The notes beneath the pieces are model-generated. The model searched no databases. It was not told the DNA's origin and worked only from the letters and a program-made list of their open reading frames with translations. 64,000 nt of DNA. Origin: Eledone cirrhosa (lineage: Eukaryota). The stretch lies in assembly GCA_964016885.1 (NCBI GenBank), contig OZ024756.1:15128001-15192000 (forward strand), in the 5' to 3' direction. The first letter of the stretch is position 1; every line of letters starts with the position of its first letter. Below, one piece after another: positions 9,101-52,220 of this stretch. Position numbers and translations under genes: made by a program.

Positions 9101-9164
9101 TAGTCTGGCGTTAAAACCATTTGGTTTAATTACAACATGGAATAGTGAAGTTGATGTAACTTAC

Positions 9165-9203
9165 CGCTGGTTGAAAGGCCGGACACGTACTGCTACTTTC
9201 ACA
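9165..9203 (-). CDS. KIF28P: Kinesin-3 motor domain exon 2
   Basis: ttacAG / GTAAGT; 39 nt, phase 2-2; (S)VKVAVRVRPFNQ(R), the canonical kinesin motor N-terminal motif. Confidence 0.92.
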
Positions 9204-9224
9204 CTGTAACAGAAGACATTTCAT

Positions 9225-9640
9225 AATAATAATAATTGTTTCTACTCTTTGCACAAGGTCAGCAATTATCCCAGTGTATTACTGGTACTTTATTTTATCG
9301 ACCCCCCCCCCCCCCCCCCGTAAGCATGAAAGGCAATGTTAACTTCGGCGGGATTTGAACTCAGATCATAAAGGGCCGTAACTCTGTGTGGTAAAACATG
9401 GCGTCCAACACAATACTGCCAATCCACCAATGATAATGGTTTCTGATTTAGGCACACACAGTTCAACAAACTTTTGGGGGAAGGGGAAAATCGATGAAAT
9501 CAACCCCAGTACTTGACTGGTACTTTATTTATCAACCTTGAAATGATGATGAAAGGCAAAGTTGAACTAAATCAGGCTTGAACTGAGGTGGAGAGGGGGG
9601 GGGGGGGGGGGGCAGGATTAAATACTGTAAAAGCATTCTA
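9225..9640 (-). mobile_element. Two tandem SINE-B copies
   Basis: Shared actggtactttattttatcgaccc...gaaaggcaaagtt...ttgaactcag motifs. Confidence 0.8.
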
Positions 9641-10420
9641 CACCATCATCATCATCATCATAATAGTAAATATAGCACCACCATCAACATTACCACAACC
9701 AGCACCACCGACATCATCATCATAACCACTGCCACCACCACCACCACCACCACTACAATCATCATCATCATCATTACCACCACCATTACCATCGCCGCTA
9801 TCAATACCATCATCATCATTCTTATTACCACCACCACCACCACCACCACCATCACCACCATCATTCTTATTACCACCACCACCACCATCACCACCACCAT
9901 CAATACCATCACCATCATTCTTATTACCACCACCACCACCATCACCACCATCACCACCATCACCACCATCACCACCATCACCACCATCACCATCATTCTT
10001 ATTACCACCACCACCACCATCACCACCATCACCATCATTCTTATTACCACCACCACCATCACCATCAATACCATCACTATCAATACCATCATCATCATTC
10101 TTATTACCACCACCATCACCATCACCACCATCACCATCATTCTTATTACCACCACCACCACCACCACCACCACCATCACCATCAATACCATCATCATCAT
10201 TCTTATTACCACCACCACCATCACCATCACCATCAATACCATCATCATCATTCTTATTACCACCACCACCACCACCATCAATACCATCACCATCAATACC
10301 ATCATCATCATTCTTATTACCACCACCACCACCACCACCATCACCACCATCATCATCATTCTTATTACCACCACCACCACCACCACCATCACCATCATTC
10401 TTATTACCACCACCACCACC
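9640..10420. repeat. ACC/ATC trinucleotide-based complex repeat
   Basis: (ACC)n and (ATC)n punctuated by attcttatt; ends in a SINE-A/RTE tail at 10421-10470. Confidence 0.9.
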
Positions 10421-10501
10421 ACCCTTGCAAGCAGGGAAAAGTGGACGTAAAATGAAATGATGATGATGATGATATATACATACATATATATATATATGTA
10501 C

Positions 10502-10591
<90 letters not shown>

Positions 10592-10902
10592 GTGTACACA
10601 ACCGATGGAGCCAGTGAACATTAAACAAAACTATCTCTGCTTTGATAAGCAAAGCAAATTATCGCCATAAATATATTGTAGTATTATTTTATCATGTATC
10701 TTTGTGTATACAGACGTAGATACCAAAGTTCAGCACACATTTATCTATACATCTGTCAACTTCCAGATACACCAGATGTCCATACCAGCAAATCCCTTCT
10801 GTGTTGCACATTACATTCGATTCCTCTTACACCTAGTTTTTCTCTGTTCTCTTATGCAAACCAATATTACCATATCCGTTGGACTATTGTAGCATACTCA
10901 CA

Positions 10903-13725
10903 CATCTTCCTTCTAGCCTCTCTGACAGACAGACAGACAGTCAACCATAACTCACTCCATCTCCTTCTAGCCTCTCTGACAGACAGACAGACAGTCAACC
11001 ATAACTCACTCCATCTACTTCTAGCCTCCATGATAGACAGACAGACAGACAGTCAACCATAACTCACTCCATCTCCTTCTAGCCTCCATGACAGACAGAC
11101 AGACAGACAGACAGTCAGCCATAACTCACTCCATCTCCTTCTAGCCTCCATGACAGACAGACAGACAGACAGTCAACCATAACTCACTCCATCTCCTTCT
11201 AGCCTCCATGACAGACAGACAGACAGTCAACCATAACTCACTCCATCTCCTTCTAGCCTCCATGACAGACAGACAGACAGACAGTCAACCATAACTCACT
11301 CCATCTCCTTCTAGCCTCCATGACAGACAGACAGACAGTCAGCCATAACTCACTCCATCTCCTTCTAGCCTCCATGACAGACAGACAGACAGTCAGCCAT
11401 AACTCACTCCATCTCCTTCTAGCCTCCATGACAGACAGACAGACAGTCAGCCATAACTCACTCCATCTCCTTCTAGCCTCCATGACAGACAGACAGACAG
11501 ACAGACAGTCAGCCATAACTCACTCCATCTCCTTCTAGCCTCCATGACAGACAGACAGACAGTCAGCCATAACTCACTCCATCTCCTTCTAGCCTCCATG
11601 ACAGACAGACAGACAGTCAACCATAACTCACTCCATCTCCTTCTAGCCTCCATGACAGACAGACAGACAGTCAGCCATAACTCACTCCATCTCCTTCTAG
11701 CCTCCATGACAGACAGACAGACAGACAGACAGTCAGCCATAACTCACTCCATCTCCTTCTAGCCTCCATGACAGACAGACAGACAGACAGTCAGCCATAA
11801 CTCACTCCATCTCCTTCTAGCCTCCATGACAGACAGACAGACAGTCAGCCATAACTCACTCCATTTCCTTCTAGCCTCCATGACAGACAGACAGACTGTC
11901 AACCATAACTCACTCCATCTCCTTCTAGCCTCCATAACAGACAGACAGACAGTCAACCATAACTCACTCCATCTCCTTCTAGCCTCCATGACAGACAGAC
12001 AGACAGTCAACCATAACTCACTCCATTTCCTTCTAGCCTCTCTGACAGACAGACAGACAGTCAACCATAACTCACTCCATCTCCTTCTAGCCTCCATAAC
12101 AGATAGACAGACAGTCAGCCATAACTCACTCCATCTCCTTCTAGCCTCCATGACAGACAGACAGTCAGTCAGCCATAACTCACTCCATCTCCTTCTAGCC
12201 TCCATGACAGACAGACAGACAGTCAACCATAACTCACTCCATCTCCTTCTAGCCTCCATGACAGACAGACAGACTGTCAACCATAACTCACTCCATCTCC
12301 TTCTAGCCTCCATGACAGACAGACAGACAGTCAACCATAACTCACTCCATCTCCTTCTAGCCTCCATGACAGACAGACAGACAGTCAACCATAACTCACT
12401 CCATCTCCTTCTAGCCTCCATGACAGACAGACAGACAGTCAACCATAACTCACTCCATCTCCTTCTAGCCTCCATGACAGACAGACAGACAGTCAACCAT
12501 AACTCACTCCATCTCCTTCTAGCCTCCATGACAGACAGACAGACAGTCAACCATAACTCACTCCATCTCCTTCTAGCCTCCATGACAGACAGACAGACAG
12601 TCAACCATAACTCACTCCATCTCCTTCTAGCCTCCATGACAGACAGACAGACAGACAGTCAACCATAACTCACTCCATCTCCTTCTAGCCTCCATGACAG
12701 ACAGACAGACAGACTGTCAACCATAACTCACTCCATCTCCTTTTAGCCTCCATGACAGACAGACAGACAGTCAACCATAACTCACTCCATCTCCTTCTAG
12801 CCTCCATGACAGACAGACAGACTGTCAACCATAACTCACTCCATCTCCTTCTAGCCTCCATGACAGACAGACAGACAGTCAACCATAACTCACTCCATCT
12901 CCTTCTAGCCTCCATGACAGACAGACAGACAGTCAACCATAACTCACTCCATCTCCTTCTAGCCTCCATGACAGACAGACAGACAGACAGTCAACCATAA
13001 CTCACTCCATCTCCTTCAAGCCTCCATGATAGACAGACAGACAGACAGTCAGCCATAACTCACTCCATTTCCTTCTAGCCTCCATGACAGACAGACAGAC
13101 TGTCAACCATAACTCACTCCATCTCCTTCTAGCCTCCATGACAGAGAGACAGACAGACAGTCAACCATAACTCACTCCATCTCCTTCTAGCCTCCATGAC
13201 AGACAGACAGACAGTCAACCATAACTCACTCCATCTCCTTCTAGCCTCCATGACAGACAGACAGACAGTCAACCATAACTCACTCCATCTCCTTCTAGCC
13301 TCCATGACAGACAGACAGACAGTCAACCATAACTCACTCCATCTCCTTCTAGCCTCCATGACAGACAGACAGACTGTCAACCATAACTCACTCCATCTCC
13401 TTCTAGCCTCCATGACAGACAGACAGACAGACAGTCAACCATAACTCACTCCATCTCCTTCTAGCCTCCATGACAGACAGACAGACAGACAGTCAACCAT
13501 AACTCACTCCATCTCCTTCTAGCCTCCATGACAGACAGACAGACAGACAGACAGACAGTCAACCATAACTCACTCCATCTCCTTCTAACCTCCATGACAG
13601 ACAGACAGTCAACCATAACTCTCTCCATCTCCTTCTAGCCTCCATGACAGACAGACAGACAGACAGTCAACCATAACTCTCTCCATCTCCTTCTAACCTC
13701 CATGACAGACAGACAGACAGTCTGA
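10903..13725. repeat. 54-bp minisatellite with variable internal (GACA)n
   Basis: gtcaaccataactcactccatctccttctagcctccat(gaca)n, about 50 units. Confidence 0.95.
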
Positions 13726-14299
13726 CAAACTGACTGACAGACAGACAGACAAACTGCCCTTACCAGTTCTTTCTTAACCCTACATTTCAAATCGATATCA
13801 ACATTATTTAATCCTAACCCTAACTTTAAATCTTAAACCTTAACCCTAAATTTTAACTCCATTCATAACATAATATTAACTCTATCCTAAACCATAACCA
13901 TAAGACTAAGCCTTTGCCCTAAACTCTAATCCAATCTCTAAACTCTATCCCTAAAATCTACCCCTAATTGTAATTTATATAATATTTCAATTTGAAATGC
14001 AGAGTAATAACGATAGGGCCCCTTGTTCCTTTACAACCTCCACCACTCCACTAAAAAAATATTCAAATTGCCACCCCCTGGGGTTTGTGTTCCTTACATT
14101 CAGAATCACTACCCACAAAAATAGGGGGCTGCCTTAACAGCATCATAGGACCCCTACGATTAAAAAAAAAAAATTCATTGGGAAGGAGGCACTCCTAGAT
14201 ATGGTAACGCCCCCCCCCCCCCCCCAGCCTTCTCTAAACTGCTAAAGCCCCGTTCCCTACTAAAATTCAAATACGTCTTACTTAACATTACAAGCTTCT

Positions 14300-15270
14300 G
14301 GAGCAAAGCAATGCACTTGGGGACCCACTGCATACACAACCACGCAGATTAGTATTAGGCCAGGTGGGACCTCTGACAACTTGCCCAGTGGGTTCAGGAC
14401 CTTAAGATGATACTGCTAAAACCCCTAAACCCAGGGACGTCATAACAGTATTTATAAGACATTGAGGCAAAGCAATACACTGTGGGGTGAGAGGGGCCAC
14501 CTACATACACAACAATCACGGAATACATAGATTAGAATTGCACCTCTAGACCTTAAGATGGGGGGGGGGGGGCGGGGGGAGGCTACATACACAATCACAG
14601 CATACATAGATTAACAGTGGGACCTTCAACCAGGTGTGTTCAGATCTTAAGATGGTGGCACTGCTAAACCCTAGAGACGTCTCAATCGTATTTATCAGAG
14701 ACTGGGGCAAAGCAAGTGGGGTAGGGGGCCCTACACAAAAAAATCACTGCATAAATAGATTAACAGTGGGTCCCTTGTCCAAGCCTTAATATGGCAGCAC
14801 TGGTAAACCCCAGGGATGTATTAAACAATATTTATAAGTTCTTAGGTAAAGCTGCAGTGGGGGAGGGGACCCTTACATACACAATCACAGCATACATAGA
14901 TTAGATTTGGGTCCCTAGGTCTAGTGTGTCCAGGCCTTAAGATAGCACTGCTAAAATGCCTAAACCCCAGGGATGTCTCCACAGTATTTATCAGACCCTG
15001 AGGCAAAGCAATAAACATGGTGGGCAAGAGGAACCCCTTATAAACACAAGCACAGCATACTTAGATTATTAACATCGAGCCACTTGAGTAGTTGAGTCCA
15101 GATGTTATGATGTCAGTGCTGAACTCCAGGGTTGTCTTTATAAGACCCTGGGGAAAAGAAACTCACATAGATCAGGCCTCTACCCTTGATCATTCAGGTC
15201 CTCGGACTACTGTCCAGTGCTAAACCCCAGGGCAAAGCAATACATTGTGGAGGTAAGAGGGAGCCCTTAC
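14300..15270. repeat. Degenerate tandem repeat of about 140 bp
   Basis: Recurring gcaaagcaa...cacaatcacagcatacatagatta...ccttaagat...gctaaaccccaggga. Confidence 0.7.
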
Positions 15271-15277
15271 ACAATAA

Positions 15278-15537
15278 TCATCATCATCATCATCATTTTT
15301 ACGTCCGCTTTTCCCTGCTTGCAAGGGTGGGATGGGAACTGATTCTGGCTTGATTTCTACAGCTGGATGCCCTTCCTAACACCAACCTCATTTACAGTGA
15401 GTGCTGGGTGCTTTTTTGCTGTGGCACCTCCACGACCACTTTGCAGTGGAATGATATAGACCCCACTCCCTATCATCTCATTTCTACAGCTGAGTAAACT
15501 GGAGCAATGTGAAATAAAGTGTCTTGCTCAAGGAAAA
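15278..15537 (-). mobile_element. SINE-A, 5'-truncated
   Basis: Same body and tail, tRNA head missing. Confidence 0.85.
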
Positions 15538-15684
15538 CAGCATATTTAACATTGGGCCACTAGTGAACTACCACCACCCTCACACACCCAAGGAAAGGGC
15601 GTGGATCATCTGTCCAGTGTACCCATGGTGTGGTGGTGGTGCTGGTTCGGACGATGATGTTACCCACCCCACATAGACAAGCAA

Positions 15685-16110
15685 CCGTGACACAACTCAG
15701 ACTAGGGTATAGTCTCTCTCTCTCTCTCCTTGTGACACCACCCATACTGGGGTATATCCCTCTCCTTGTGACACCACCCAGACTGGGGTATAGCCCCTCT
15801 CTCCTTGTGACACTGTCCAGACTGGGGTATAGCCCCTCTCTCCTTGTGGCACCACCCAGACTGGGGTATAGCCCCTCTCTCTCCTTGTGACACCACCCAG
15901 ACTGGAGTATTATAGCCCCCTCTCCTTGTGACACCGCCAAGACTGGGGTATAGCCCCTCCCTTTGTGACACCACCCAGACTGGAGTATTATAGCCCCCTC
16001 TCCTTGTGACACCGCCCAGACTGGGGTATAGCCCCTCTCTCTCCTTGTGACACCACCCAGACTGGGGCATAGCCCCGCCCCTTGTGACACCGCCCAGACT
16101 GGGGTTTAGT
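15685..16110. repeat. 39-42-bp minisatellite
   Basis: ccttgtgacaccacccagactggggtatagcccctct. Confidence 0.92.
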
Positions 16111-16350
16111 CTCTCCCCACCTCCTCTTTCTTTCGTTGCTTTATCCTTTTTTAAATCTTTTCCTTCTTTTCATTTCCTCCTTTTTTTTTCTTCTTCCTTT
16201 TTTTCTCTTCCCTTTGATAGTGTTTTGTTTTGTTTTTATTAGACACTGCTCAATTATTTTTTTTATGTAATTAAATCCTAGAAATAAAAACATTATCACA
16301 ATATAACAATACACAATATATAAGAAAGAAAAAAAACCTCTTTTACTTAC

Positions 16351-16364
16351 GATTCTCCCGACAT
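16351..16364 (-). CDS. KIF28P: Kinesin-3 (KIF28/KLP-6-like) first coding exon, ATG to donor
   Basis: ATG TCG GGA GAA TC|GTAAGT; joins the next exon in phase 2 to give MSGES-VKVAVRVRP; possible upstream acceptor (ttttcAG) puts exon start at 16437. Subfamily call from N-terminus only (KIF1/unc-104 not excluded). Confidence 0.8.
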
Positions 16365-16729
16365 ATTCTTTTGTTTTATATTTTCTCTTCTTTTATCGCT
16401 GTTAATAATTAACAAAATATATTGTTAATATATTGTCCTGAAAACACGAACGACTTGCGGCTTTTTTTTTTTTTTTACATTAAAAATGAATAAAAATGAA
16501 GAGAAATGTGGTGTAACTCCTTTTCTTTCCTCTGTTGTGGGTTAATTGCTTGGTTTTTTCAGTCACTTTCTATTCACATGTTCGTTTGTTTAGGATGAAC
16601 GAAAGAGAAGAAGAAGAAGAAATAATAATATAATAAAATAATAATAACATAATGACTCTTAAATGTTGTGAAGTAAGTCTTTCTTTTAGCTGATGCATCA
16701 GCCGTTGTTTAATGTGTGTATACATTTGA

Positions 16730-28389: not shown

Positions 28390-28656
28390 TATATCAACTA
28401 GAAATTGATTGACATATATATATATTTAAAATAAACACATGAAACAATCACAGGGGATAATTTGTAAAGTGTGTAATCACACACAAAAAAAAAATAATCA
28501 CACACAAAAAAAGGTAATATTTGAAACTCTAGTTAAACTTTAATTAGTTACCTACCTAGCTGTGTGTGATTACACACTTTACAAATTATCCCCTGTGATT
28601 GTTTCATGTGTTTATTTTAAATATATATATATGTCAATCAATTTCTAGTTGATATA
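28390..28656. repeat. About 96-bp perfect inverted repeat with 75-bp spacer
   Basis: 28390-28485 is the reverse complement of 28561-28656. Confidence 0.9.
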
Positions 28657-30516: not shown

Positions 30517-30879
30517 CGACTTCAATACGCCTCTATGTTTTTTACCTAATTTTATTGTTATCTGAAAAATAGATATATGGTTTCCTAGGATATTGCCAGT
30601 GTGCAACACTCTGACCTATTGGACTTTTAGTTCCAATTCTCTCATAGAGCTATCATAAAGCCACGTGATCATTATATATTATATATCGATCTCTTTTTAT
30701 CAGTACGGAAATGTTATTTTATTTATCGACCTCAAAGGGCTTAAATGCGAAGTTGACTTCGGTGGGGAAGTCAGTGCAAATACCACCAAGCATTCTACTC
30801 AACGTTCTAACGACTCTGCCAATTCGCCGATTTCTAGCAGAGATACGAAGCGACAATGTATGCGAGAGGGGAGTGAAAG

Positions 30880-31325
30880 AGTAAATGGGATATACATGAT
30901 TACATTAACCCCCAATACTTAATTGGAACTTTATTTTATCAATCCTAGAACGGATGAAAAGCACCTGTATAAGGTAAACCAAATGTACACCTATTGGTGC
31001 TCCACCGCTAATCTCATTAGCCAGTCTCCCAGTTCAATATTTTATGTTAGAAAAATCAGCAATTTATATTAATGTTTCGTAGAATTAGTTACAGTGGTTG
31101 AGTACACCACATTTTCTGGTAAAACTTTCCAACAATTCACCACTCTTTGAGAGAACAGAAATTTGTTTCCTATTTGTTCTTTCATATTTTTAATCTGTCT
31201 TCTCATTTAACTTCTATTTAGCTGGAAAAATCTTGGAGCTATCGATCTGTTCCTTTCCATCGCTATTCATTTTCCTTGCTTCAAGAGTATACGTACAATG
31301 AAAGTTTCTTTAATTTATCTCCGTG
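30880..31325 (-). repeat. Left arm of long inverted repeat (CR1/L2 3' fragment plus SINE piece)
   Basis: Reverse complement of 33780-34265; core about 30924-31181 appears identical. Confidence 0.9.
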
Positions 31326-31475
31326 TGCTAATTGACAAGAATAAAGCCTATCAACATTATATTTGGATGAAGACGCTAGGAATGGGGAATAAAGAGAGCA
31401 AGGGAGAGTAAAACACTAACCCGGGCAGCAAAATTTCGAATACAGAGAGATAAATATTTAAAATTTTTCTAACAG

Positions 31476-31581
31476 AAATCGACAGTTATTAGAGAACAGC
31501 TATCAAGGGTCAAGTATCATCTGTCTCTTGCTGTTGGACGTTCCCAGCGTTTCTCATTCCGTACAACGAATATTTTGAACG
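31476..31581 (+). CDS. Unknown plus-strand gene, exon A
   Basis: tttttctaacAG / GTGAC; 106 nt, phase 0 to 1; KSTVIREQLSRVKYHLSLAVGRSQRFSFRTTNILN. Confidence 0.5.
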
Positions 31582-32049
31582 GTGACGCTGTCTTATGTTT
31601 TTAGTGGTGGTGATTTCTAAACCAGGATCCATTTAACGGGGGGAAGTTAAGAAAATATGAGGGAAAAATTTTACCCTACCAAAGTTTATCCTTCAAAATC
31701 ATCTTATTTCTTACGTAAGAGTATTATTGGTACCAAGGAAACTGGAAATTCTTGGGAAAAATGTATACCAGTAAGGTTTTTTTTTATCATTATTATTATC
31801 GTTTCATTTTTCGGCGCTTCTTCTACCCTGCATTTCAAATCGAATCAAACGCTACCATAGCCCTAATTCAATTCCTCACAATTGTCGTAATCCTAACATT
31901 AATGAATCGTAAACCTAACAAAAACAAATCCTAACACTAACTTTGCTAGTCTACCAGGAATCCTTAGATAACATATCTTAGTTAAAATCTTCCCATAGAA
32001 TTGCTTGATTATTAGAGCTTTACAACTAGCCAAAGTAATTACTATTTAG

Positions 32050-32092
32050 CACCAAATGAAGACGTGGTACCATGGTACCTTATTTCTGGGAG
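32050..32092 (+). CDS. Unknown plus-strand gene, exon B
   Basis: atttAG / GTGAGA; 43 nt, phase 1 to 2; (A)PNEDVVPWYLISG(R). Confidence 0.55.
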
Positions 32093-32220
32093 GTGAGAAG
32101 GAAGTAATCAAATCGGACGCCCCCTCATTAGTCTGTTGATTGATCATGTGTTTTCGAGTAAGTTTGGAAAATAATTAGTACTACTTTTATTTTTCATTTT
32201 AATACTTTGGTATCTGTCAG

Positions 32221-32286
32221 ATACAAGAGATATGGGATTTTTTTTACCACTGGTCAGTCAGGATTTCAGCTGCAGCAGCAACACGA
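32221..32286 (+). CDS. Unknown plus-strand gene, exon C
   Basis: T-rich tract, tgtcAG / GTAAGG; 66 nt, phase 2-2; (R)YKRYGIFFTTGQSGFQLQQQH(D). Confidence 0.6.
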
Positions 32287-32998
32287 GTAAGGCAAACACC
32301 TTCACGCTGTTACTGTCGATTTTTACTGTTCCACGAAAACGACTTCTCTACGTAACGCAAGTCGTAACTGGATATATGGAGATACCGGGTAGCCCAGACG
32401 TCAAAATCCAAGCCTCTCGACCTCATTGGCGTGGTACAAATGAGATGCAGAGTAATACATCTGACACCAGGGTTTACCGGAAAAGTGTCGAATCGAAAAC
32501 CAGACCATCTTAGGGGCTCCACTCCTGGATCTATTATAAAGTTTACATCATAGAATTTGGATGGGGGGAATGAAAAGTAAAGTTGACCTCGGCAAGATTT
32601 TCAACCTTCAAGATGTAAATACGTGGAACAAATACTGCAAAGCATTTTATTCGACGTTCTACCAATTCTTCCAATCCACTAGCACATTGCACTAATGAAA
32701 TTTTTACTGAATTTCTACAAGTTAAAACAGTTAAATTCTTTCTCAAGCCAAGAGCTTGTCCTGGTTTTATGTGGCGTTATGCAACTGAGAGTGCAAGACT
32801 TCTTCCCTCACTGGATGTACACCTGTCTGCGGCAAGGTTATCCTCCTCACAACCCCAGTAGGTGGTGGTATTGAGTTTTTCAGATGAATATAAAATGATC
32901 ATGGACACAACTGAAGCCATCACCTTACGGTTCTGACAATACCTAATGCGCAGATAGAATTGATTTTCCGAAAAGTAGGGTAGAACTTACAGACGAAG

Positions 32999-33040
<42 letters not shown>

Positions 33041-33045
<5 letters not shown>

Positions 33046-33230
33046 TTGTCCCCCGGTATTAGAGGGGTTTACATTCCTAGAGCATCTGCGAAGAGCGGAA
33101 GACCGCGAATATTGGATATGGTCCATAAAAATGCCTATAAATGTAACGTAAAAGATAGGCGGGCAAATACGGTATATTGCTATTAATAATTAAGTGTCAA
33201 AAACGTGAAAAATATATATATATTTAGAGC
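33041..33230 (+). mobile_element. Tigger/pogo-like terminal fragment
   Basis: TA-CAGTTGTCCCCCGGTATT..GGGGTTTACATTCC; no matching right end seen. Confidence 0.45.
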
Positions 33231-33658
33231 GGGTTGGTGGTTGAGTCAAGAAATATGGATGATGTCTTGGATCTAGTATAGACATTTAGTTTGTAATTAG
33301 CTTTGTTTTAAGGAGTGTATTAGCTACAAGTTTGACATTCGATGGTCTTACCCACTGGCTGTTTCGTTTATCATTGGTTTTGTTTTCGGGGTGTATCATA
33401 TCGAAATGGTAATTCAGCCAATCACTGTTATGAATTTAGTTAGTTCTTCCGGCCCCCTATTGTGGCTTTAGACAATGAGAGATCTCCACCTAGACCCACC
33501 GCCGTAAGCCCTGTCACATGCCTATCCCTATCTACCAGATTCTCAACCATCTTTTCTTTGCTCCTCGCCCCCACACGTACTCGTTCTGGTTTCCTACTTG
33601 AGAGAGGCTCTTGTCATTTTGTTGACATACGTAGCACGTGGCCGAGCATCTTTTGCAG

Positions 33659-33713
33659 TCTTAAGGTGATAGTATTTCATAAATTACTCAACCCGGTCTC
33701 TTCCATAAACGAG
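33659..33713 (+). CDS. Unknown plus-strand gene, exon D
   Basis: cttttgcAG / GTCGC (weak donor); 55 nt, phase 2 to 0; (D)LKVIVFHKLLNPVSSINE. Confidence 0.5.
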
Positions 33714-33779
33714 GTCGCGTTAAGAAATTCTTAGACAACGTCTACAATTTTAATCAGTAGCAAATTTACGACAACCACT

Positions 33780-34265
33780 AAACGAAGAAAGATTAAAGAA
33801 ACTATCATTGGCAACTCTTGAAGCAAGAAGGATAATAAGAGGTGGTTTAATTGAAACCTTTAATATTATTAATAGAAAGGAACTGATCGATACCTCCAAG
33901 ATTTTTTCCAGCTAAATAGAAATTAAATGTGAAAACACAAAGTAAAATATTCAAGAAATATACAAGAACAAATAGGAAACAAATTTCTGTTCTCTCAAAG
34001 AGTGGTGAATTGTTGGAAAGTTTTACCAGAAAATGTGGTGTACTCAACCACTGTAACTAATTCTACGAAACATTAATATAAATTGCTGATTTTTCTAACA
34101 TAAAATATTGAACTGGGAGACTGGCTAATGAGATTAGCGGTGGAGCACCAATAGGTGTACATTTGGTTTACCTTATACAGGTGCTTTTCATCCGTTCTAG
34201 GATTGATAAAATAAAGTTCCAGTTAAATATTGGGGGGTTAATATAATCGTATATATCCCATTTAA
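33780..34265 (+). repeat. Right arm of long inverted repeat (CR1/L2 3' fragment plus SINE piece)
   Basis: Decayed ERLKKLSLATLEARR..RGGLIETFNII and SQRVVNCWKVLPENVV, typical of a CR1/L2 ORF2 end. Confidence 0.9.
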
Positions 34266-35402
34266 TCCCCCCCCCCCCCCACCTACGCGGAAGACTAGTT
34301 AGTGAGACGAGCAACAGTAGATGGGTATTAGGCCCCACCGCTGAGTTATAGAAATATTTTCATAGGAAACCGCCCCTCGTTCTACGATACAAAACTGTTT
34401 TAAAATGTTTATATTATCTAGATACCTCCCATCATAATTTTATGTAAAAACCTTTGTTAAGTTATGTTCCAAACACCAACTTGATAATACTTTCTACATT
34501 TGGCACAAGGTCAGCAATTTCAAGGGAAGGGGAAAGTCAATTACATCGACCCCAGTGGTACTTCATTTTATCGACCCCGTAAAGATAAAAGACAAAGCTA
34601 ACCTTGGCGGGATTTGAATTCAGAACGAAAAGGGCCGTAACTATATGCCGCAAAGAATGTTGTTTGACGCGATACCGACACTACCAATCCACCGCGCTAC
34701 AACAACTTATTAATAATAAAAAAATTAGTTGTATTACTAAATCTCTCCACATTCTTCATTATTTTCAAAATTATGAAAATGTTATAGACAGTGTCTTTTA
34801 TTTGAAATATGGTAACGAAAGGGTTTAAAGTGATTTTATCTAAAGTCGTTAGAATGTTGTTTGTGGTATTCGTTTCGGCTCTGTGAGTTCAAATTTTGCC
34901 GAGGTCAACTTTGTCTTTCATCCTTTCGAATTCGATAAAAAAAAAAACCTAGCAGTCTGGGATCGATTCTTCCTCTATATATTTTTTTCCATCTCTGGAA
35001 GAAATCTGCTGTATTCAGACCTGGAGAGGAGATTGTGCTCCACCAGAAACGCCGTCAATACGGCTCCCCTACGACTTCTTCGTGAGTTATGGGACCATAT
35101 ATACATACAAACAAACATTTATCTAAAACATAAAAAGACACCTTCCAGTATAAGTTTATGTAAAATCTTTGTTAAATTATGTTTCAAACATCAGTTTATT
35201 AATGGCTATTTAGTTAAATTATTAAAAAAAGAAAAGAGCCTTCCAAATTCTTGATTATTTTCAAAATGATTTCAAAACCATAGACAGTGTTTTTCATTAT
35301 AAATATTTTTCCTAAATGGTTAACTGTGGTTATTTTTCTCCTTTATATTTAAAGCCTTCTTTTTAAGAGTTGCTCTTTTTTGTTATTTTCTTTGATTTGA
35401 AG

Positions 35403-35843
35403 GAGTCTTTGCTAAAACTCGAGGACTTCATAAAAAAGGGACTACTGATCTCAGATATGAATTTCCTGCAGCAGACTAGAGGAAAATTGGCTGCTTTGAA
35501 ATATTCGAAAATTAATGGTATATGTCGTAAGAGCCACTTCACTCTTGATGTGCAGGACATGCGTAAAGAAGCCCTGTTGCGGGTAACACACCGTCGAATT
35601 AAAGGGTATTTGGATATCCTAGAGCACAGCTTCGAAGAGGAGGTGCCTACCTTTACCAGCAGCAATTACTATCCGTCGAAAGAAGGTGCCAACTTCGATA
35701 ATGTTGACAACGAGAAATTTCTCTCGGAAGATGTGAAAGAAGAGGCAATCGGCGATAGTCTAGCTACCGGCATTAAAATGATCCAGCCACACACAAAACA
35801 AAGGAGAATTGAAACACAACATTATAATGTTACAACATCCTGA
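35403..35843 (+). CDS. Unknown plus-strand gene, terminal exon
   Basis: Long pyrimidine tract, gaAG acceptor, phase 0; 146-codon non-repetitive ORF ESLLKLEDFIKKG...NVTTS*; AATAAA at 35968-35973. Confidence 0.6.
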   Translation, partial: ESLLKLEDFIKKGLLISDMNFLQQTRGKLAALKYSKINGICRKSHFTLDVQDMRKEALLRVTHRRIKGYLDILEHSFEEEVPTFTSSNYYPSKEGANFDNVDNEKFLSEDVKEEAIGDSLATGIKMIQPHTKQRRIETQHYNVTTS

Positions 35844-36439
35844 AACCAATCAAGAGCTGTGGGATATCGTGGCTCCAAACCCCAGAGAATATCTGAGTGG
35901 TAATGCCTATTTTTATAAACAGGAAAACTTCGATTGGATTTCGAAGAACCTTGAAATCCTTAATAATAATAAAAAGATGTCAATGTGTATATTATTTCTT
36001 TATCGTCGTTATTTATTACTATGGGTTATTTGTCCCGTTTTCACTTCAAATTACGCCTTGTCACTCATTGTGTCGGACTGTCCACTCTCCCCGTCCGACG
36101 GGGAGATTTCCCACTTACTTTTGTGAAAATGGGTATAACTTTCATTATGTAAAATCTTCCCATTTTGCCTCATTTCTCACTTTTTTTTCATGGTACTCCC
36201 CGTTTGAGTTTTTAGAGGTTGGCAGGTCTGTTGTGTCGTCACGCAAAATTTCCCTGTAACTACGCTAAGGTTGCACTTGCCTGTAAAATGTTCAGACAAT
36301 TGCAGGTTAATTTCAAGACCAAATTGTTCCAATAACTGGAACACTGCCTTTATTTTTCTTAATAACATTGTCAGACAAAGACAAAAAACTTCCTGACACA
36401 CCTGTTCCATATTATTTTATGTATTTATTTAATGTCTGC

Positions 36440-44140: not shown

Positions 44141-44223
44141 TTAATAGTTATAAAGAAGACTCATCGCCTCGGCTGCTTTGCCTCTCACTTGCGATGATGG
44201 ATCTTTCAAAAGGTCGATTAACG
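44141..44223 (-). CDS. MROH1: MROH1 terminal coding exon
   Basis: Long T tract, ttctAG acceptor, phase 1; (A)LIDLLKDPSSQVRGKAAEAMSLLYNY*, resembling the MROH1 C-terminus LLKDP..VR..AAEA. Confidence 0.92.
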
Positions 44224-44744
44224 CTAGAAATAAAAAAATTAAAAAAATTAAAAAATAAATAAATAAATAAATAAAAAAATAAAAAAATAAAATAAATAAA
44301 TAAAATAAAATAAAAAAAATAAAAAAAAGATAAATAATAACTCATAACATCCGGTAATAATTAAGCAAAAAATATCTAAAAACAGGTTTTGTTAATTGAA
44401 ATGTTTATAGTATCTTTATTTGCCAGAGCAGATTGTTGTAAAAATTTGCAGTATTAGAGTATGGTATGGACTCCTGAGGGAGACATAGGGGTGCCATATT
44501 GACATTTCTTAGGGCATTTTAAAACCTGGCAGAGCTCATCTCCTCTCCAGGTCTAAATACAGCAGATTTCTTCCAGAGAAGGATAGGAAATGAGAAAGAG
44601 ATATAGATGAAGAATCAACTGGTACTTTTTTTTTTAATCGACCTTGAATGGCTGAAAGGCAAAGTTAACCTTGGTGGGATTTGAACTGAGAGAGAGCAGA
44701 GAGCTGGATTGAATACTGTAAAGCATTCTATCTGACATTCTAAC

Positions 44745-45170
44745 AATTCTACTAGACATCACCGACATTCTAACATTACTAGACATCATTGACACTACTA
44801 GACATCATTGACACTACTAGACATCACTGACACTACTGACACTACTAGACACCACTGACACTACTAGACATCACAGACAATCTGCTAGACATCACTGACA
44901 CTACTAGACATCCCTGACACTACTAGACATCACTGACAATCTGCTAGACATCACTGACACTACTAGACATTACTGACACTACTAGACATCACTGACACTA
45001 CTAGACATCACTGACACTACTAGACATCACTGACACTACTAGACATCACTGACACTACTAGACATCACTGACACTACTAAACATCACACACACTACTAGA
45101 CATCACTGACACTACTAGACATCACACACACTACTAGACATCACACACACTACTAGACATCACACACACA
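44745..45170. repeat. 19-bp minisatellite
   Basis: ctagacatcactgacacta. Confidence 0.9.
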
Positions 45171-45567
45171 GACCTTACATAGGAATGGTTTCAATACAAG
45201 AAAAAAAAAATACCACAAAACAAAAAATTATAAACATTTTCAGATGAGAAAAGTTGAAAATATAAATGAAAATAAATAAAAACAGAAAACAGAAAAACAA
45301 AAATAAAATAAAATAAAAAGCAAAAGAAAAACAAACAATAAAAGTCAAATAAATATCAACAGAAATGGTTTCATGTTTTCATGACAATATTTCTATCAAG
45401 AATATATTGCCTTTGTGTTTTAATTAAGGAAAATAATCAAGAATTTTTTATTATTTCAGGTAAGAACCTTTGTTAAGTTATGTTCCAAACACATTTATCT
45501 AAAAAATCTATTACTATTTCATCAAAAATTATGAGAGGTTTTCGTGAAATACTTAACTTACAACTTA

Positions 45568-46190
45568 ATAATTGTTTCTATTTTTGGCACAAGGCCAGTA
45601 ATTACCCCAGTGCATTACTGGTACTTTATTTTATCAACCCTGTAAGGATGAAAGGGAAAGTGGGATTGAACTCAGACCGTAAAGGGCAGTAGCACTGTGC
45701 TGCAAAGCATGTCGTCCGACCCTCTGCCAATACTGCCAATCTAATTTGGGCAGAAGGTCAGTAAGTTTTGGGGAGGAGAAAGTCAATTAAATCAACCCCA
45801 GTATGTCACTGGTACCTTATTTTATCGACACCAAAAGGACGAAAGGCAAAGCTAACCTTGGTAGGATTTAAACTCAGAATGTAAAGAGCCGTAACTGTGT
45901 TGCGAAGCATGGCGTCCAACCCTCTACCAATACTGCTAATCCACCGCCCTTTCAATTTAATAATGGTTTCTAGTTTAGGCACAAGGTCATTAATTTCGGA
46001 AGAGAAGGTTAGAGGGGAATTGAACCCTCCCCCAGTACTTAGATGGTACTTTATTTTGTCAACCCTGAAAGATTGAAAGACAAAGTTGACCTCAGCAGGA
46101 TTTGAACTCAAAATGTAAAGAGCTCTAAGTCAACTGACTTCGACAAAATATTTTGTCTGATACCCTCACCATTCTACCAAGCCACTAACT
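45568..46190 (-). mobile_element. Three head-to-tail SINE-B copies
   Basis: Repeated ggcacaagg...ctggtac..ttattttatc...gaactca motifs. Confidence 0.8.
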
Positions 46191-46438
46191 TAAATATTAA
46201 AATATTTCTCTTTTATTAAGTTAACTCCTGAAAACTAATATTATGGATCTTATAATAATAAGATTTGAAGTTAAATTTAAACACTAACACTTTAGCATTT
46301 AAACCAGTTGTATTTGGCCAGAATCCCCACCTCTTTCTGTTCAATCTGGCCATAACTGGCCGTTCATACCAGTGAAAGTTGTGATAATATGTGTTGTTTT
46401 AATGTTAGACATAAGGGCGGTAGCTTTGGACATGGTGT

Positions 46439-46662
46439 TTAACCCTTTAGCATTTAAACTGGACGTATCCTGCCAGAATTCTCTTACCTCTTTCTGTTCA
46501 AATCGGCTGTAGCCAGCCACTCATACTGATGTTATGGTACTGTTCTCAAAATAAATATCAAAATCTCAGATTCAATATTATAGGAGATAAATATGTGAGG
46601 TGAAGCATTTACCACAAAAATACAATAGTATTTATAGAGTAATGTAAATTCTAAAGGGTTAA
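46439..46662 (-). mobile_element. piggyBac-like MITE family 1 copy
   Basis: TTAACCCTTTAGCATTTA...TCTAAAGGGTTAA; body is the reverse complement of 4247-4474. Confidence 0.85.
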
Positions 46663-47907
46663 GTGAAGTAGTTCAGGACATGGTGGTGTTTAATGGCTAA
46701 AGAATGTTGAGTTATGTTTGTTGAAATGACTCGCTATCGTCTTAATGAAAGACAAATTACTAATTATTAATTATTTATAACCTTCTGTGTGCTCTAAGCA
46801 CCTTATGTCGCTGATAGAGTAATCTCCCCTTAATATATAATACAGTGTCAAGGGAAGCAAATCATAAAAAAATTCATTCAGCATGCTAAAGATTAATTTA
46901 CTCACAAAACCAGTTTTAGTGGGAAGAGAAAGTCAATTAAATTGACCCCATTACTTGACTGGCATTTCATTTTATCAACTCCATAAGAACGAGAGGCAAA
47001 GTTAACTTTGATGAATTTGAACTCTGAATGTAGAGAGTCAGAACAAACATTACTAAGCACTTGTTTGACACTTTAACAACTCTTGCCAATGCATCAATTA
47101 AATTGATCACAGTACGTGACCAGTATCGACCCTGTAAGGATGCCAAACTTACATTCAATGTTCTAATCATTATGCTAATTCAACATCCATTTTCGATGGA
47201 TTTCTAAACAGTTTGGGTTGGTTGTTTGAAGGGTTAAAGAAGGTGGATTTGTGTTGCCTTGTATAAAACATGAGATGCAGACCTCCTCAGCCTGTTAGGA
47301 AGGTCAGTAGCCCCATTTCAGGATTGACATGGTCTATGTAGACCTATCTAACCCATGATAGCAGGGAAAACAGATGTTAAAGATTTATGTTGTCTTAGTT
47401 GTGGGGAACAAAACTCTGAATACCCCCCCCCCCCCCCCCCCCCGCGTAACTAAAAGTGGACTAGGCAAAAAGCCTATAAATAAAAACTGAAGTGAATGGT
47501 CAGGTAGACTGTGTACGGAGTCTCATTGTAGTCTCTCGGTAGTTTGTAATTACACCTGGTGGATACTTTTGGTTTTACCTTCGTTTCATACAGATATAGA
47601 AAATAGGAGACACGCCATTATAACAGTCTTGTATAAGGTTGTGATCTACACTAACAACAACAACCACCATCAGTGAAATATATAAACATATACAACAAGA
47701 GATGACACTAATCTTAATACTTGACAAACTCATAACATGGCTTCTTATGTTCAGTTACTGGGTATCAATAGTAACAGAGACAGTGGTGGGTATTTTTAGC
47801 TGAAAAGCAAAGCTGGTTATTATCAGGGCCAAAAACAAAATAAATGCCATGACAAGCAACACATTAAAAACATGCAAAGTTAGTGAAGATCTTTGACAAG
47901 ATTTTCC

Positions 47908-47939
<32 letters not shown>

Positions 47940-47961
47940 AGAGAAAGAGAAAGAGAAAGAG

Positions 47962-48039
<78 letters not shown>

Positions 48040-48045
48040 AAGAGA

Positions 48046-48076
<31 letters not shown>

Positions 48077-48252
48077 TGGGTGTGTGTGTGTGCGCGTGTG
48101 TGTGTTGAGTGTCTGCGTGTCTGCGTGTCTGCGTGTCTGCGTGTGTGCGTGTGTGCGTGTGTGCGTGTGTGCGTGTCTGCGTGTCAATTACTGTGGTGGT
48201 GGTGGGTGAGAGTGTAGGGTTGGGACTCTTGTACACACACACACACACACTT

Positions 48253-48299
<47 letters not shown>

Positions 48300-48461
48300 A
48301 AAGGATAACAAGGACGATTGATTACTCCTTCATTGCATTTATTGATAGGTGACACGTGTTTCACCACTGATCAGCTCAAGGTTCGATCTGTATCGATCCT
48401 ACCCTACTGTGAACCTGCAGTAACTCCTAGTTACACCCCCTGGATATATATATATATATAT

Positions 48462-48793
48462 ATGGAGGCACATGGCTTAGTGGTTAGAGCAGTGGCCTTG
48501 CAATCGAAAGGTTGTGAGTTCAATTCTCAGACCGGGTGATATGTTGTTTCCTTGAGCAAGACACTTTATTTCACATTGCTCCAGTTTACTCAGCTGTAGA
48601 AATGAGATGATAGGGACTGGGGTCCCTATCATTCCACTGCAAAGTGGTCATGTAGGTACCACGGTAAAAAAGCACCCAGCACTCACTGTAAATGAGGTTG
48701 GTGTTAGGAAGGGCATCCAGCTGTAGAAATCAAGCCAGAATCAGTTCCCGTCCCACCCTTGCAAGCAGGGAAAAGCGGACATAAAATGATGAT
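48462..48793 (+). mobile_element. SINE-A, full-length tRNA-derived SINE with RTE-derived tail
   Basis: A box TGGCTTAGTGG, B box GTTCAATTC, CCTTGAGCAAGACACTT central domain, tail acccttgcaagcagggaaaagcggac(ATG)n. Confidence 0.9.
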
Positions 48794-48856
48794 ATATCCA
48801 CACACATACACATAATACATAGATACAAATATGCTTACGTATGTATATGCACATAC

Positions 48857-48889
<33 letters not shown>

Positions 48890-49959
48890 CAGGGTCGAAT
48901 TTTAATAATTCAGATTTAAATTATTGGGTGAGAGAGGAAACGACTGAAGCTGTGTCCATTCTATTTGGTAAACTTTGTTAAAAAAATTATATATATATGA
49001 TGAAGGACTAGCGTCCGAAATGTTAAGACCCTCTTCCTGCTATTTCAAGCGTTAAACTAATATATTCCTTCCATATACTGTACCGATTGTGTTGTTTTTT
49101 CTGTTTAGCTTTTACATACAAATATATATATATAGAGAGATATATATATATATAAATGTATGCATAGTATATTTGGCAATATACCGTATGTTTAATTAAA
49201 AACCTTTTGAAGACCTTACACTATCATTTTAAAGTAGTGACTGTGTCACTTCTTTTCGGCGAAAGAAGGCAGAGAAGCCAACAGTCTGTTTCATGCTGTT
49301 TGGCAATCATCAGAGCTATGTACTGCCCTCTTCTGCTGAATATTATAGAAGCTGGATTCCGATAGAATTCCAGTAATAATCAGGAGCTGATTATACAAAA
49401 ATTAAGTATTAGGATTGGTGCTCTGAAATAGCGATGTAGTCACATGAATAACCATGTAACAGAAATATATATAATGCAATAAACAATTAAGGTGATTTAA
49501 ATTTCTGTTACATTATTCATGTGACTTCATCAGATGCTTATGCAATCATTGGTGCAGTTATGTATTTTCGGTTTGTATTTTTTCTTAATTTATTCTTTTA
49601 AATTGTGTCTGGCAAACCCTATCGTTCATAGTTAGTATTTTTTTCACCCTAGCAAATCTGGTCCCCTACGATTGAAACACATATGTATATATCTGTGTTT
49701 ATCTCTCTTTTATATTCAATTATAAATACATACATATTCATTTGTCTTATGTGTTTTAATTTTCTGAGTGCAACTTGTATATAAGTGTGTGTATAAGTGT
49801 GTGTATAAGTGTAAAGATTGTGGTTAGTTGGTGACACTATGACAGTGACAATGACAGGACTGCAATAGTGACTATAACAGTGACTACGACAATGACAAAC
49901 TAAAGCTTTCATCACACACCATTAACACAACTGGCAATAGGAAATAAGCTGCAAAGGTG

Positions 49960-50086
49960 TATGTGTGAGTGTGTATGTATGTATGTAAAAATATATATAT
50001 ATACACACACACAAACATGTATATATGTACACACACACATATATATATATATATGTGATATGAGTGTGTATGTATGTATGTATGTA

Positions 50087-50130
<44 letters not shown>

Positions 50131-50216
50131 AACATATATATATGTACACACACACATATATATATTTATATATATATGTGATATGAGTGTGTATGTATGT
50201 ATGTATGTATGTAAAA

Positions 50217-50249
<33 letters not shown>

Positions 50250-50504
50250 AACATGTATATATGTACACACACATATATTTATATATATATATATATGTGA
50301 TATGAGTGTGCATGTATGTATGTATGTATGTATGTAAAAAAAAAAATATATATATATATACACACACAAACATGTATATATGTACACATATCACATATAT
50401 ATATATATGTGTGTGAGTGTGTATGTATGTATGTAAAAATATATATATATATATATATACAGACACACACACACAAACATGTATATATGTACACACACAC
50501 ACAC

Positions 50505-50550
<46 letters not shown>

Positions 50551-50672
50551 ATATGAGTGTGTATGTATGTATGTATGTAAAAATATATATATATATATAT
50601 ACACACACACAAACATGTATATATGTACACACACACATTTATATGTATATATATATATATATATATATGTGA
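49960..50672. repeat. Higher-order microsatellite repeat
   Basis: Recurring gtgatatgagtgt(gtat)n-aaaa(ta)n(ca)n-aacatgta block. Confidence 0.85.
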
Positions 50673-50743
50673 TAAATATAAATGAATAAATGAGTTAAGA
50701 AGCTAATATAGTCAGGATAGTTGTAGAGTCATGCAAAACTTAC

Positions 50744-50758
50744 CACGGGGATTGAAAC
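50744..50758 (-). CDS. MROH1: Candidate 15-nt alternative microexon in last MROH1 intron
   Basis: T-rich tract then cttAG|GTTTCAATCCCCGTG|GTAAGT; phase 1-1 and frame-preserving (adds GFNPR); no transcript evidence. Confidence 0.4.
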
Positions 50759-50809
50759 CTAAGTAGGATTGACAGTGTATAAAACAAGGCAAAAATTACA
50801 AAACCAAAA

Positions 50810-51025
50810 ATAATGATTTCCTATATCGGCACAAGGCCAGCAATTTTTGGGGAGAGGGGGAAAGTCGATTAAATCGACCCCAGTGCGTGACTGGTACTTT
50901 ATTTTAATGACCCCCGTAAGGATGAAAGGCAAAGTTAACCTCGGCGGGATTTGATCTTAGGACGTAAAGGGCCGTAACTCTATGCTGCAAAGCAGGGCGT
51001 CCGACGCTCTACCAATTACTGCTAA
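50810..51025 (-). mobile_element. SINE-B copy
   Basis: Matches 49-256. Confidence 0.8.
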
Positions 51026-51186
51026 TAATAATATGTAAGATACAAAAGAAAAAAAAAACAAAACAAGAAATGAAGACAAAAAAACAAAACAAGAAATGAA
51101 GACAAAAAAACAAAACAAGAAATGAAGACAAAAAAAAGATAAGACATGACAGGAATAAAGAAGAAATAAAAATGGTAGAAATACAG

Positions 51187-51547
51187 TGAAGACACGAGGC
51201 CTGATGGTTAGGGTATTGGACTTATGGCCATATGGCCATGGGCTGTATTCTTTGACTGGGTGACATGTGGTGTTCTTGAGCAAGTCATTTCATGTGGAGG
51301 TGTGTGGCCTAGTGTTAAGTGTATTGGAGTTACAATCAAAATGTTGTGGGTTTGATTCCAGGGCAGGGTTCATTTCATGTTGCTCCAGTATAAACAGCTG
51401 AAAATGAGTACCAGAAATAGCTGGGGGTTCAACCCTGCGATGGACTGGTGTCCTGTCCAGAGGGGTGTCTTGTACACTCAGTCGCTTCATGCCACGAAAC
51501 TGATATAAGCACTGGCCTAACGAGCCTTCTGGCTTAAGACAGACTTA
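51187..51547 (+). mobile_element. tRNA-derived SINEs with a V-domain-like segment
   Basis: Two A/B-box heads; aaccctgcgatggactggtgtcctgtccag resembles the V-SINE conserved motif. Confidence 0.6.
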
Positions 51548-51619
51548 TGTGGGAGGCCATCTAAACCTATAAAGATGTGAGCTGTAACCCTAAGTTACAC
51601 ACACATATCAGTGATGTTT

Positions 51620-52220
51620 GTGATATTAGGTATATCATTGTATCACTTATGATGTACTATGACTGGTCATAGTATAACAATATGACAGTGATATTGGCAA
51701 TATCATAACAGTGATATAGTATACCTAATATTACAGTTATGATATTACTGTGATGTACTATGACTGGTCATAGTATAACAATATGACAGTGATATTAGCA
51801 ATATCATAACAGTGATATAATAATATACCTAATATCAGAGTTACGATATTACTGTGATGTAATATGACTGGTCATAGTATAACAATATGACAGTGATAAT
51901 GGCAATATCATAACAGTGATATAGTATACCTAATATCACAGTTATGATATTACTGTGATGTACTATGACTGGTCATAGTATAACAATATGACAGTGATAT
52001 TAGCAATATCATAACAGTGATATAATAATATACCTAATATCAGAGTTACGATATTACTGTGATGTACTATGACTGGTCATAGTATAACAATATGACAGTG
52101 ATAATGGCAATATCATAACAGTGATATAGTATACCTAATATCACAGTTATGATATTACTGTGATGTACTATGACTGGTCATAGTATAACAATATGACAGT
52201 GATATTGGCAATATCATAAC
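51620..52220. repeat. Alternating 101/104-bp tandem repeat
   Basis: gactggtcatag at 51661, 51762, 51866, 51967, 52071, 52172. Confidence 0.9.

What the first reader, a model, noticed from the sequence alone, without database searches (positions are those of the whole stretch)
30880..34265. Inverted repeat with an apparently identical core brackets a 270-nt, phase-symmetric four-exon module
Seen: the arms 30880-31325 and 33780-34265 are decayed CR1/L2 plus SINE sequence. About 250 bp (30924-31181 vs about 33964-34221) looks identical by eye while both flanks have diverged. Seen: predicted exons A-D (106+43+66+55 = 270 nt) all lie between the arms, 150 bp and 70 bp from them, start and end in phase 0, and contain no stop. 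Known: reverse-complementary intronic sequences drive back-splicing or multi-exon skipping and form ADAR substrates, and coleoids edit RNA heavily. Inference: this could be a circRNA or skip cassette (a circle would be an endless ORF, though with no in-frame AUG) or an invertible exon block, with the arms homogenised by gene conversion.
Basis: partly seen in the sequence, partly recalled or inferred. Interest (0 to 1): 0.8.

Follow-up and report, generated by a model that had tools for sequence, protein, structure and literature searches.

The report
Gene-conversion patch between inverted retroelement remnants
Two old mirror-image retrotransposon remnants lying 2.8 kb apart between two genes of an octopus-like genome share a letter-perfect 258-base core, likely because one copy recently overwrote the other; the four exons proposed between them have little support, so this is likely an ordinary event rather than a circular-RNA device.

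Summary
The repeat is real. A 258-bp core (30924-31181 / 33964-34221) is identical, while the flanks differ at 21 of 170 sites plus indels. Short-read contigs, probably of the same animal, show the core once at twice flank depth, so it is not a polishing artefact. A relative about 6.5% diverged has the left arm joined to the spacer in the same orientation, differs from the core at 18 of 217 sites, and shows no perfect repeat. This fits a recent, lineage-specific gene conversion without net inversion; the donor arm is unresolved. The four-exon module is poorly supported. It lies between MROH1 (stop 44141) and a kinesin-3 gene, both on the minus strand, in CpG-undepleted, likely intergenic DNA. 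Its splice sites are weak, and 31 of 60 control windows yield an equally good stop-free chain. Against my reading: no substitution of the relative is listed across exon A (truncated table). No RNA run was available. The scan has noted similar patches in other genomes (unchecked). Ordinary; low interest.

The parts
30879..31325 (-). Left arm: decayed 3' end of a LINE (CR1-like by recalled motif) followed by a SINE-like tail, reading leftwards
33780..34267 (+). Right arm: same LINE 3' end plus SINE-like tail
30924..31181 (-). Identical 258-bp core, left copy (inferred conversion tract)
33964..34221 (+). Identical 258-bp core, right copy; one short-read contig of exactly these limits at depth 11.5 against about 6 for the flanks
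31326..33779 (.). Spacer: old, mostly low-copy DNA with decayed repeats; its left part (to 32154) is collinear in organism B
31476..31581 (+). Predicted exon A: weak splice sites and no protein relative, but no substitution of organism B is listed in 31445-31594 (possible conserved element)
32050..32092 (+). Predicted exon B (my reconstruction): acceptor weaker than all 28 reference acceptors, donor average
32221..32286 (+). Predicted exon C (my reconstruction): weak sites; weak DNA match to another locus (65%, E 0.002)
33659..33713 (+). Predicted exon D: its first 33 nt lie in an old dispersed repeat (33433-33691, 63% to a copy on C1)
44141..44224 (-). Last coding exon and stop of MROH1, 10 kb from the right arm (context)
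9163..16365 (-). 5' coding end of a kinesin-3-type gene: SVKVAVRVRP exon starting at 9203; candidate ATG exon 16365-16351, inferred (context)

Best explanation
Two old inverted copies of a retroelement remnant, 2.8 kb apart in likely intergenic DNA, share an identical 258-bp core, likely because a recent non-crossover gene conversion copied that stretch from one arm onto the other. Shown: the perfect core within flanks about 12% diverged; its presence in short reads; the relative's left arm differing from the core and being collinear with the spacer. Inferred: the pair arose by a local inverted duplication of a LINE-end plus SINE-tail unit before the split from organism B, since arm-to-arm divergence is about twice the A-B divergence. 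A break in one arm was then repaired on the other as an intrachromosomal template, within roughly the last fifth of the time since that split. The spacer did not end up flipped. Exons A-D are likely chance AG..GT chains, so the repeat likely has no RNA function.
For: Core 0 of 258 against flanks 21 of 170; run probability about 2e-10 and the patchiest of 137 local repeat pairs in 1.464 Mb. Run X1 has one contig exactly 33964-34221 at depth 11.5, with neighbours ending 30 nt inside the core; depth ratio 1.93. The organism B contig runs unbroken 30816-32154 with 88 substitutions, 18 of them in 217 readable core sites. A second B contig over 34102-34180 has 8 differences in 79 and does not share the left contig's listed changes. 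0 of 6 other family copies inspected carry the SINE tail behind the LINE end. Gene context: MROH1 ends at 44141 and the kinesin exons lie at or below about 16.4 kb. CpG observed/expected is 0.41-0.50 in both gene bodies and 0.82 in 30.4-38.3 kb; octopus methylation sits on gene bodies and is depleted in intergenic DNA (PMC9476566, passages). Exon tests.
Against: Organism B's right arm was not seen over 33900-34101 (deleted or not assembled), and the 79-bp piece is only a candidate orthologue, so the pre-conversion state is not reconstructed. Donor direction is weak (3:1 for the left arm), and at the 4 informative visible sites in 34132-34150 the core follows B's second contig at 3. X1-X3 are one sample, probably the assembly's own. 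Inner-flank identity between arms (0.85) is only modestly above identity to other family copies (0.76-0.82), so two independent insertions plus older conversion are not excluded. No B substitution is listed in 31445-31594, covering exon A (rough P 0.001-0.05; only 40 of 447 rows shown), which my reading does not explain. Many octopus genes are unmethylated, so high CpG does not exclude a transcript.
Confidence: 0.75

Rival explanations
1. Flip-flop block: the arms recombine with crossover, the 2.8-kb spacer exists in both orientations in the population, and the core is the conversion tract that accompanies the flips.
For: 258 bp of perfect inverted identity at short distance is a possible substrate. 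A precedent exists in the yeast FF region (PMC9731477, abstract and section 10). Short-read contigs cannot tell orientation.
Against: Organism B joins the outer left flank to the same spacer end as the window, so zero or an even number of flips. In the human P6 palindrome, inversions were rare (3) beside 146 conversions (PMC3723533, abstract).
Confidence: 0.1
2. An unannotated, probably non-coding transcript or a regulatory element uses the exon A region; if it is transcribed through both arms, the duplex would form and be A-to-I edited as a by-product.
For: No B substitution listed in 31445-31594. The DNA there is single-copy as far as the search sees, and CpG-rich. AG sites with acceptor-like scores lie just upstream of the kinesin's candidate ATG exon, so an untranslated first exon could lie further out. 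Predicted duplex -640 kcal/mol.
Against: The variant table is truncated and drops overlapped sites. No Rfam match in 29.5-38.5 kb. CpG depletion stops at about 16.4 kb, where the kinesin's candidate ATG exon lies.
Confidence: 0.1
3. One reading: exons A-D are real internal exons of a plus-strand gene, and the arms act as reverse-complementary matches that drive back-splicing or skipping.
For: The geometry fits (150 and 66 bp from the arms), 270 nt, open frame. All eight sites have AG/GT and score above the median of local AG/GT (62nd-99th percentile). Exon A conservation hint.
Against: All 4 acceptors score at or below the lowest 2 of 28 MROH1 acceptors, and 3 of 4 donors at or below the lowest 3 of 28. 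Summed score is -7.8 against about 33.6 for four real exons. 31 of 60 control windows give a chain as good, and the spacer itself gives a better, different chain on each strand. Exon A frame: 2 hits among 1.84 billion representatives, both repeat artefacts with no significant stretch. No plus-strand host gene was found. Exon D overlaps an old repeat. The perfect core is not seen in the relative. Octopus circRNAs are low overall (PMC9699675, passages).
Confidence: 0.04
4. The identity is an assembly or polishing artefact.
For: The confirming runs are probably from the same animal as the assembly.
Against: Short-read contigs built independently of the assembly reproduce the core with exact limits and about double depth, with 0 differences on every listed piece that touches an arm (X1 4 pieces, X2 3, X3 2). 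X2's mean depth 5.82 is nearer the two-copy expectation 6.3 than the 1.5-copy 5.0.
Confidence: 0.01

Closest known systems
Arm-to-arm (non-allelic) gene conversion in inverted repeats, e.g. human Y palindrome P6 (PMC3723533; abstract and outline seen)
   Same: Inverted arms homogenised in tracts; conversion without inversion is the usual outcome.
   Different: Here the arms are about 450-bp retroelement remnants 12% diverged, with one 258-bp tract, no genes inside and no sign of maintained identity across species.
Saccharomyces flip/flop region with recurrently homogenised inverted repeats (PMC9731477; abstract and section 10 seen)
   Same: Inverted repeat around a spacer, with arms more alike within a genome than expected.
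   Different: There the 4-kb arms hold genes, are homogenised in every species and both orientations are found. Here only one orientation is seen and the relative shows no perfect repeat.
Template switching between imperfect inverted repeats (PMC8604942; abstract seen)
   Same: Homogenises inverted arms by copying one onto the other; sequence alone cannot separate this from recombinational conversion.
   Different: Described for short inverted repeats; a 2.8-kb spacer and a 258-bp tract fit break repair better (inference).
Reverse-complementary matches that promote back-splicing and exon skipping (PMC8938519, PMC8330042; search listing with start of abstract only)
   Same: Complementary arms close to the ends of a block.
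   Different: Those lie in the introns of transcribed host genes around real exons; neither is shown here.
Inverted duplications at staggered-break inversion breakpoints in Drosophila (PMC1885836; search listing only, mechanism recalled)
   Same: A possible origin of the old local inverted pair.
   Different: Not testable here; would predate the split from organism B.

Membership tests
Non-allelic gene conversion between inverted repeats | A tract of identity far beyond the divergence of the surrounding paralogous sequence | tested here: met
   0 of 258 against 21 of 170; P about 2e-10
Non-allelic gene conversion between inverted repeats | The identity is in the DNA, not made by the assembler | tested here: met
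   258-nt short-read contig at 1.93 times flank depth; one sample only
Non-allelic gene conversion between inverted repeats | Arms closer within the species than to their orthologues in an outgroup | tested here: met
   A-left against A-right 0 of 217; against B-left 18 of 217; B's second copy seen over 79 bp only, 8 differences
Non-allelic gene conversion between inverted repeats | Non-reciprocal: flanks not exchanged | tested here: met
   B contig collinear from outer flank 30816 through the arm to spacer 32154; an even number of flips is not excluded
Non-allelic gene conversion between inverted repeats | Donor and acceptor arm identifiable | tested here: inconclusive
   Likelihood ratio 3:1 for a left donor; 3 of 4 visible sites point the other way
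circRNA or skipping cassette driven by reverse-complementary matches | Arms lie in the flanking introns of a transcribed host gene | tested here: inconclusive
   No host gene found; flanked by two minus-strand genes; CpG pattern intergenic-like; an unmethylated or non-coding host is not excluded
circRNA or skipping cassette driven by reverse-complementary matches | Bracketed exons have splice sites like the organism's real exons | tested here: not met
   7 of 8 sites in the lowest tail of 28 MROH1 introns; chain matched by 31 of 60 controls
circRNA or skipping cassette driven by reverse-complementary matches | Back-splice or skipping junction reads; A-to-G clusters in the arms | not testable with these tools
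   No RNA holder listed
Flip-flop inversion polymorphism | Both orientations present among individuals | not testable with these tools
   No long reads; RAD runs gave 1-4 stray reads each
Flip-flop inversion polymorphism | Arms homogenised in each related species | tested here: inconclusive
   No perfect repeat seen in B, but B's right arm was mostly not recovered
CR1-clade LINE 3' end | Match to a curated CR1 model | not testable with these tools
   Assignment rests on recalled motifs in the translation and on dispersed copies; Pfam and Atlas gave nothing

The most novel reading that the evidence does not exclude
An unannotated transcript with a conserved exon A runs through both arms, and the recent conversion turned a 12%-mismatched pair into a perfect 258-bp duplex. 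A single repair event would then have switched on back-splicing or heavy ADAR editing in this lineage only: gene conversion as a birth mechanism for a circRNA in a coleoid.
Probability: 0.05. Interest if true: 0.6.

Novelty: new member of a known kind. Interest (0 to 1): 0.17.

Why it matters
As it stands it is a clean, datable example of a known process, and a marker for testing how often short inverted repeats convert or flip in a cephalopod genome. One full-text search (cephalopod, genome, inverted repeat, gene conversion) listed 3 papers, none on this by title or start of abstract; that is a narrow search, not proof of absence. It would matter more only if RNA showed a transcript across both arms.

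Tried and rejected
No RNA holder listed: no evidence either way. RAD runs X5-X7 gave 4, 1 and 1 partial reads on 33900-34180. One X7 read matches 33921-33985 at 99% or more, between two AATT sites, but a single read is below the tool's threshold. Host gene = MROH1: rejected, the gene is complete to its stop at 44141. The ORF at 35367-35843 as a downstream exon of a host gene: no homologue among longer proteins, no Pfam, no Atlas hit, single copy. My recalled impression that exons C and D lie antisense in RTE-type LINE remnants was not confirmed: four local profiles did not score those stretches and a protein search with the C1 copy found nothing; only the DNA-level repeat match for D stands. 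Of 424 candidate low-repeat ORFs left of MROH1, I viewed the best 40 and scanned 32 hand-picked ones (16 in the window) against Pfam; the rest were not scanned. The exon A 24-mer had 0 matches in metagenome contigs. Rfam: 0 matches. One search was flooded by N runs and redone. The splice model rests on 28 introns of one gene, a few probably misplaced, and the 60 control windows overlap each other. No earlier notes on this genome. Supplements of the cited papers were not opened.

Full report
Observation. The two arms align in inverted orientation from 30879/34267 inwards. The longest identical run is 258 bp, 30924-31181 against 33964-34221. Outside it the arms differ at 21 of 170 aligned sites with six indel events in the three flank blocks. 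With 27 differences over about 434 positions, a clean run this long has probability about 2e-10, and 0 of 100,000 permutations reached it. The exons, rebuilt from the stated lengths (B and C each 1 of 6 candidates), give 270 nt, an open frame 0 and no in-frame ATG.

What the arms are. The right arm translates in broken frames to stretches that I recall as the C-terminal end of a CR1-clade reverse transcriptase; no curated model confirmed this. The genome holds dispersed copies, 68-75% identical over the long matches (40 of 83 candidates scored). After the LINE end both arms continue into a SINE-like tail that has many 77-87% copies in the window. None of 6 other family copies inspected has that tail. 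This points to a local inverted duplication of one composite unit. The margin is small, though: the inner flanks are 0.85 alike and 0.76-0.82 alike to family copies, so independent insertions with older conversion remain possible.

Not an artefact. Runs X1-X3 are one sample of organism A, probably the assembly's own. X1 has one contig of exactly 258 nt at 33964-34221 with depth 11.5, and its neighbours end 30 nt inside the core (31152-32654, 33342-33993, 34192-34408), all with 0 differences. The depth ratio is 1.93. That is the graph expected from two identical copies on both haplotypes. It says nothing about orientation.

Outgroup. Organism B (X4) has one contig running 30816-32154 with 88 substitutions and 38 gap letters: outer flank, left arm and spacer in the same order as the window, so there is no net inversion. 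Pooling, it differs from the core at 18 of 217 readable sites (8.3%), against 70 of 1122 elsewhere (6.2%; Fisher P 0.29). Laid on the right arm, a second B contig covers 34102-34180 with 8 differences in 79, lacks the left contig's changes at 34135, 34143 and 34145, and has its own at 34144. It is a candidate right arm and is not identical to B's left arm. No B right-arm contig was seen over 33900-34101. So the perfect core is seen only in A. Zero differences in 258 bp bound its age at about 18% of the A-B divergence (95% bound). The donor is unresolved.

Gene context. MROH1 (91-94% to the nearest hits over the queried exon, including Argonauta) runs on the minus strand and ends at 44141. A kinesin with motor, Kinesin_assoc (weak) and KIF1B matches lies to the left, also on the minus strand. 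Its SVKVAVRVRP exon starts at 9203 and a candidate ATG exon at 16365-16351 joins it in frame (1 of 13 candidates, chosen by plausibility). CpG observed/expected is 0.50 and 0.41 in the two gene bodies, 0.73 in 16.5-30.4 kb and 0.82 in 30.4-38.3 kb (208 CpG against 115 expected at the gene-body rate). In octopus, methylation is enriched in gene bodies and depleted in intergenic DNA, though the largest class of genes is unmethylated (PMC9476566, passages). The repeat is therefore likely intergenic. No plus-strand host gene was found among the ORFs scanned.

The exons. Scored with a matrix from 28 MROH1 introns, all four acceptors fall at or below the lowest 2 of 28, and three of four donors at or below the lowest 3 of 28; only donor B is average. 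The summed score is -7.8 against about 33.6 for four real exons. A stop-free, phase-symmetric four-exon chain at least that good exists in 31 of 60 control windows (24 had no chain), and the spacer offers a better chain on each strand. Exon A's frame found 2 hits among 1.84 billion representatives, both sums of non-significant repeats. Exon D overlaps an old dispersed repeat. Against this: one search lists no B substitution between 31444 and 31595, which covers exon A. The table shows 40 of 447 rows and drops sites overlapped by other contigs; allowing for that, P is roughly 0.001-0.05. I could not retest it, and it keeps open a conserved element or non-coding exon there. No RNA run was listed, which is no evidence either way.

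How ordinary. In 1.464 Mb of this genome (six regions, one containing the window) there are 68 inverted and 69 direct pairs of at least 200 bp with 0.2-10 kb spacers; 13 inverted pairs are at least 95% identical. Patchiness P under 0.01 occurs in 5 of 68 inverted and 4 of 69 direct pairs, and this pair is the most extreme, as expected for one picked for that trait. Exact inverted matches of 80 bp or more occur in all six regions. Complementary arms are thus common here, and their closeness to AG/GT chains needs no explanation.

Comparison. It works like arm-to-arm conversion in palindromes, where conversion is common and inversion rare (PMC3723533, abstract), and it meets the testable features of that class. 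It differs from the yeast flip/flop region in showing one orientation and no shared homogenisation (PMC9731477). Polymerase template switching cannot be excluded by sequence (PMC8604942, abstract). [quoted passage not shown] Unchecked notes of this scan describe similar 210-257-bp patches in other genomes; they are not support.

Verdict.

Noticed in passing
window 44141-63060 (-) and G000:C17 up to 15301214: MROH1 gene, last eight coding exons in the window, intact to the stop; about 32 kb inside it (about C17:15196000-15228000) is wholly tandem repeat.
   Followed up: partly
window 9163-16365 (-) and L044-L050: Kinesin-3-type gene directly downstream of MROH1 on the same strand; KIF28/KLP-6-like by recall; transcription start not located.
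   Followed up: partly
window 31445-31594: No substitution of organism B listed in 150 bp of CpG-rich, apparently single-copy DNA; possible conserved non-coding element.
   Followed up: partly
window 35367-35843 and 35782-36126 (+): Two overlapping open frames (158 and 114 aa) in single-copy DNA with no homologue found; the X1 contig over 35254-36147 has one gap against the window, place not shown, which might be a frame-joining indel.
   Followed up: partly
window 28390-28485 / 28561-28656: Perfect 96-bp inverted repeat with a 75-bp spacer; similar perfect short-spacer hairpins of 90-730 bp occur in all six regions sampled.
   Followed up: partly
G000:C9:20003535-20011702 (L091-L092): 3.25-kb arms, 99% identical, in inverted orientation around 1.7 kb, holding long LINE-like ORFs.
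   Followed up: no
G000:C1:200111812-200113106; C9:20012456-20015232; C9:20016453-20018925: Weaker perfect-patch-in-diverged-arms inverted pairs (135, 204 and 101 bp runs; P 7e-4 to 8e-3, uncorrected).
   Followed up: no
L046:1820-2260 (-): The frame holds a stretch resembling the histone H2B C-terminus (recalled) next to a kinesin exon; possibly a processed fragment in the intron.
   Followed up: no
window 5856-9101 and 52466-53421: Arrays of the same 48-bp satellite in opposite orientations, about 92% alike, 43 kb apart.
   Followed up: no
L037:3476-3745 and L038:5412-5651 (+): Exons of an immunoglobulin-domain gene about 130 kb left of the window, beyond the kinesin's 3' end.
   Followed up: no
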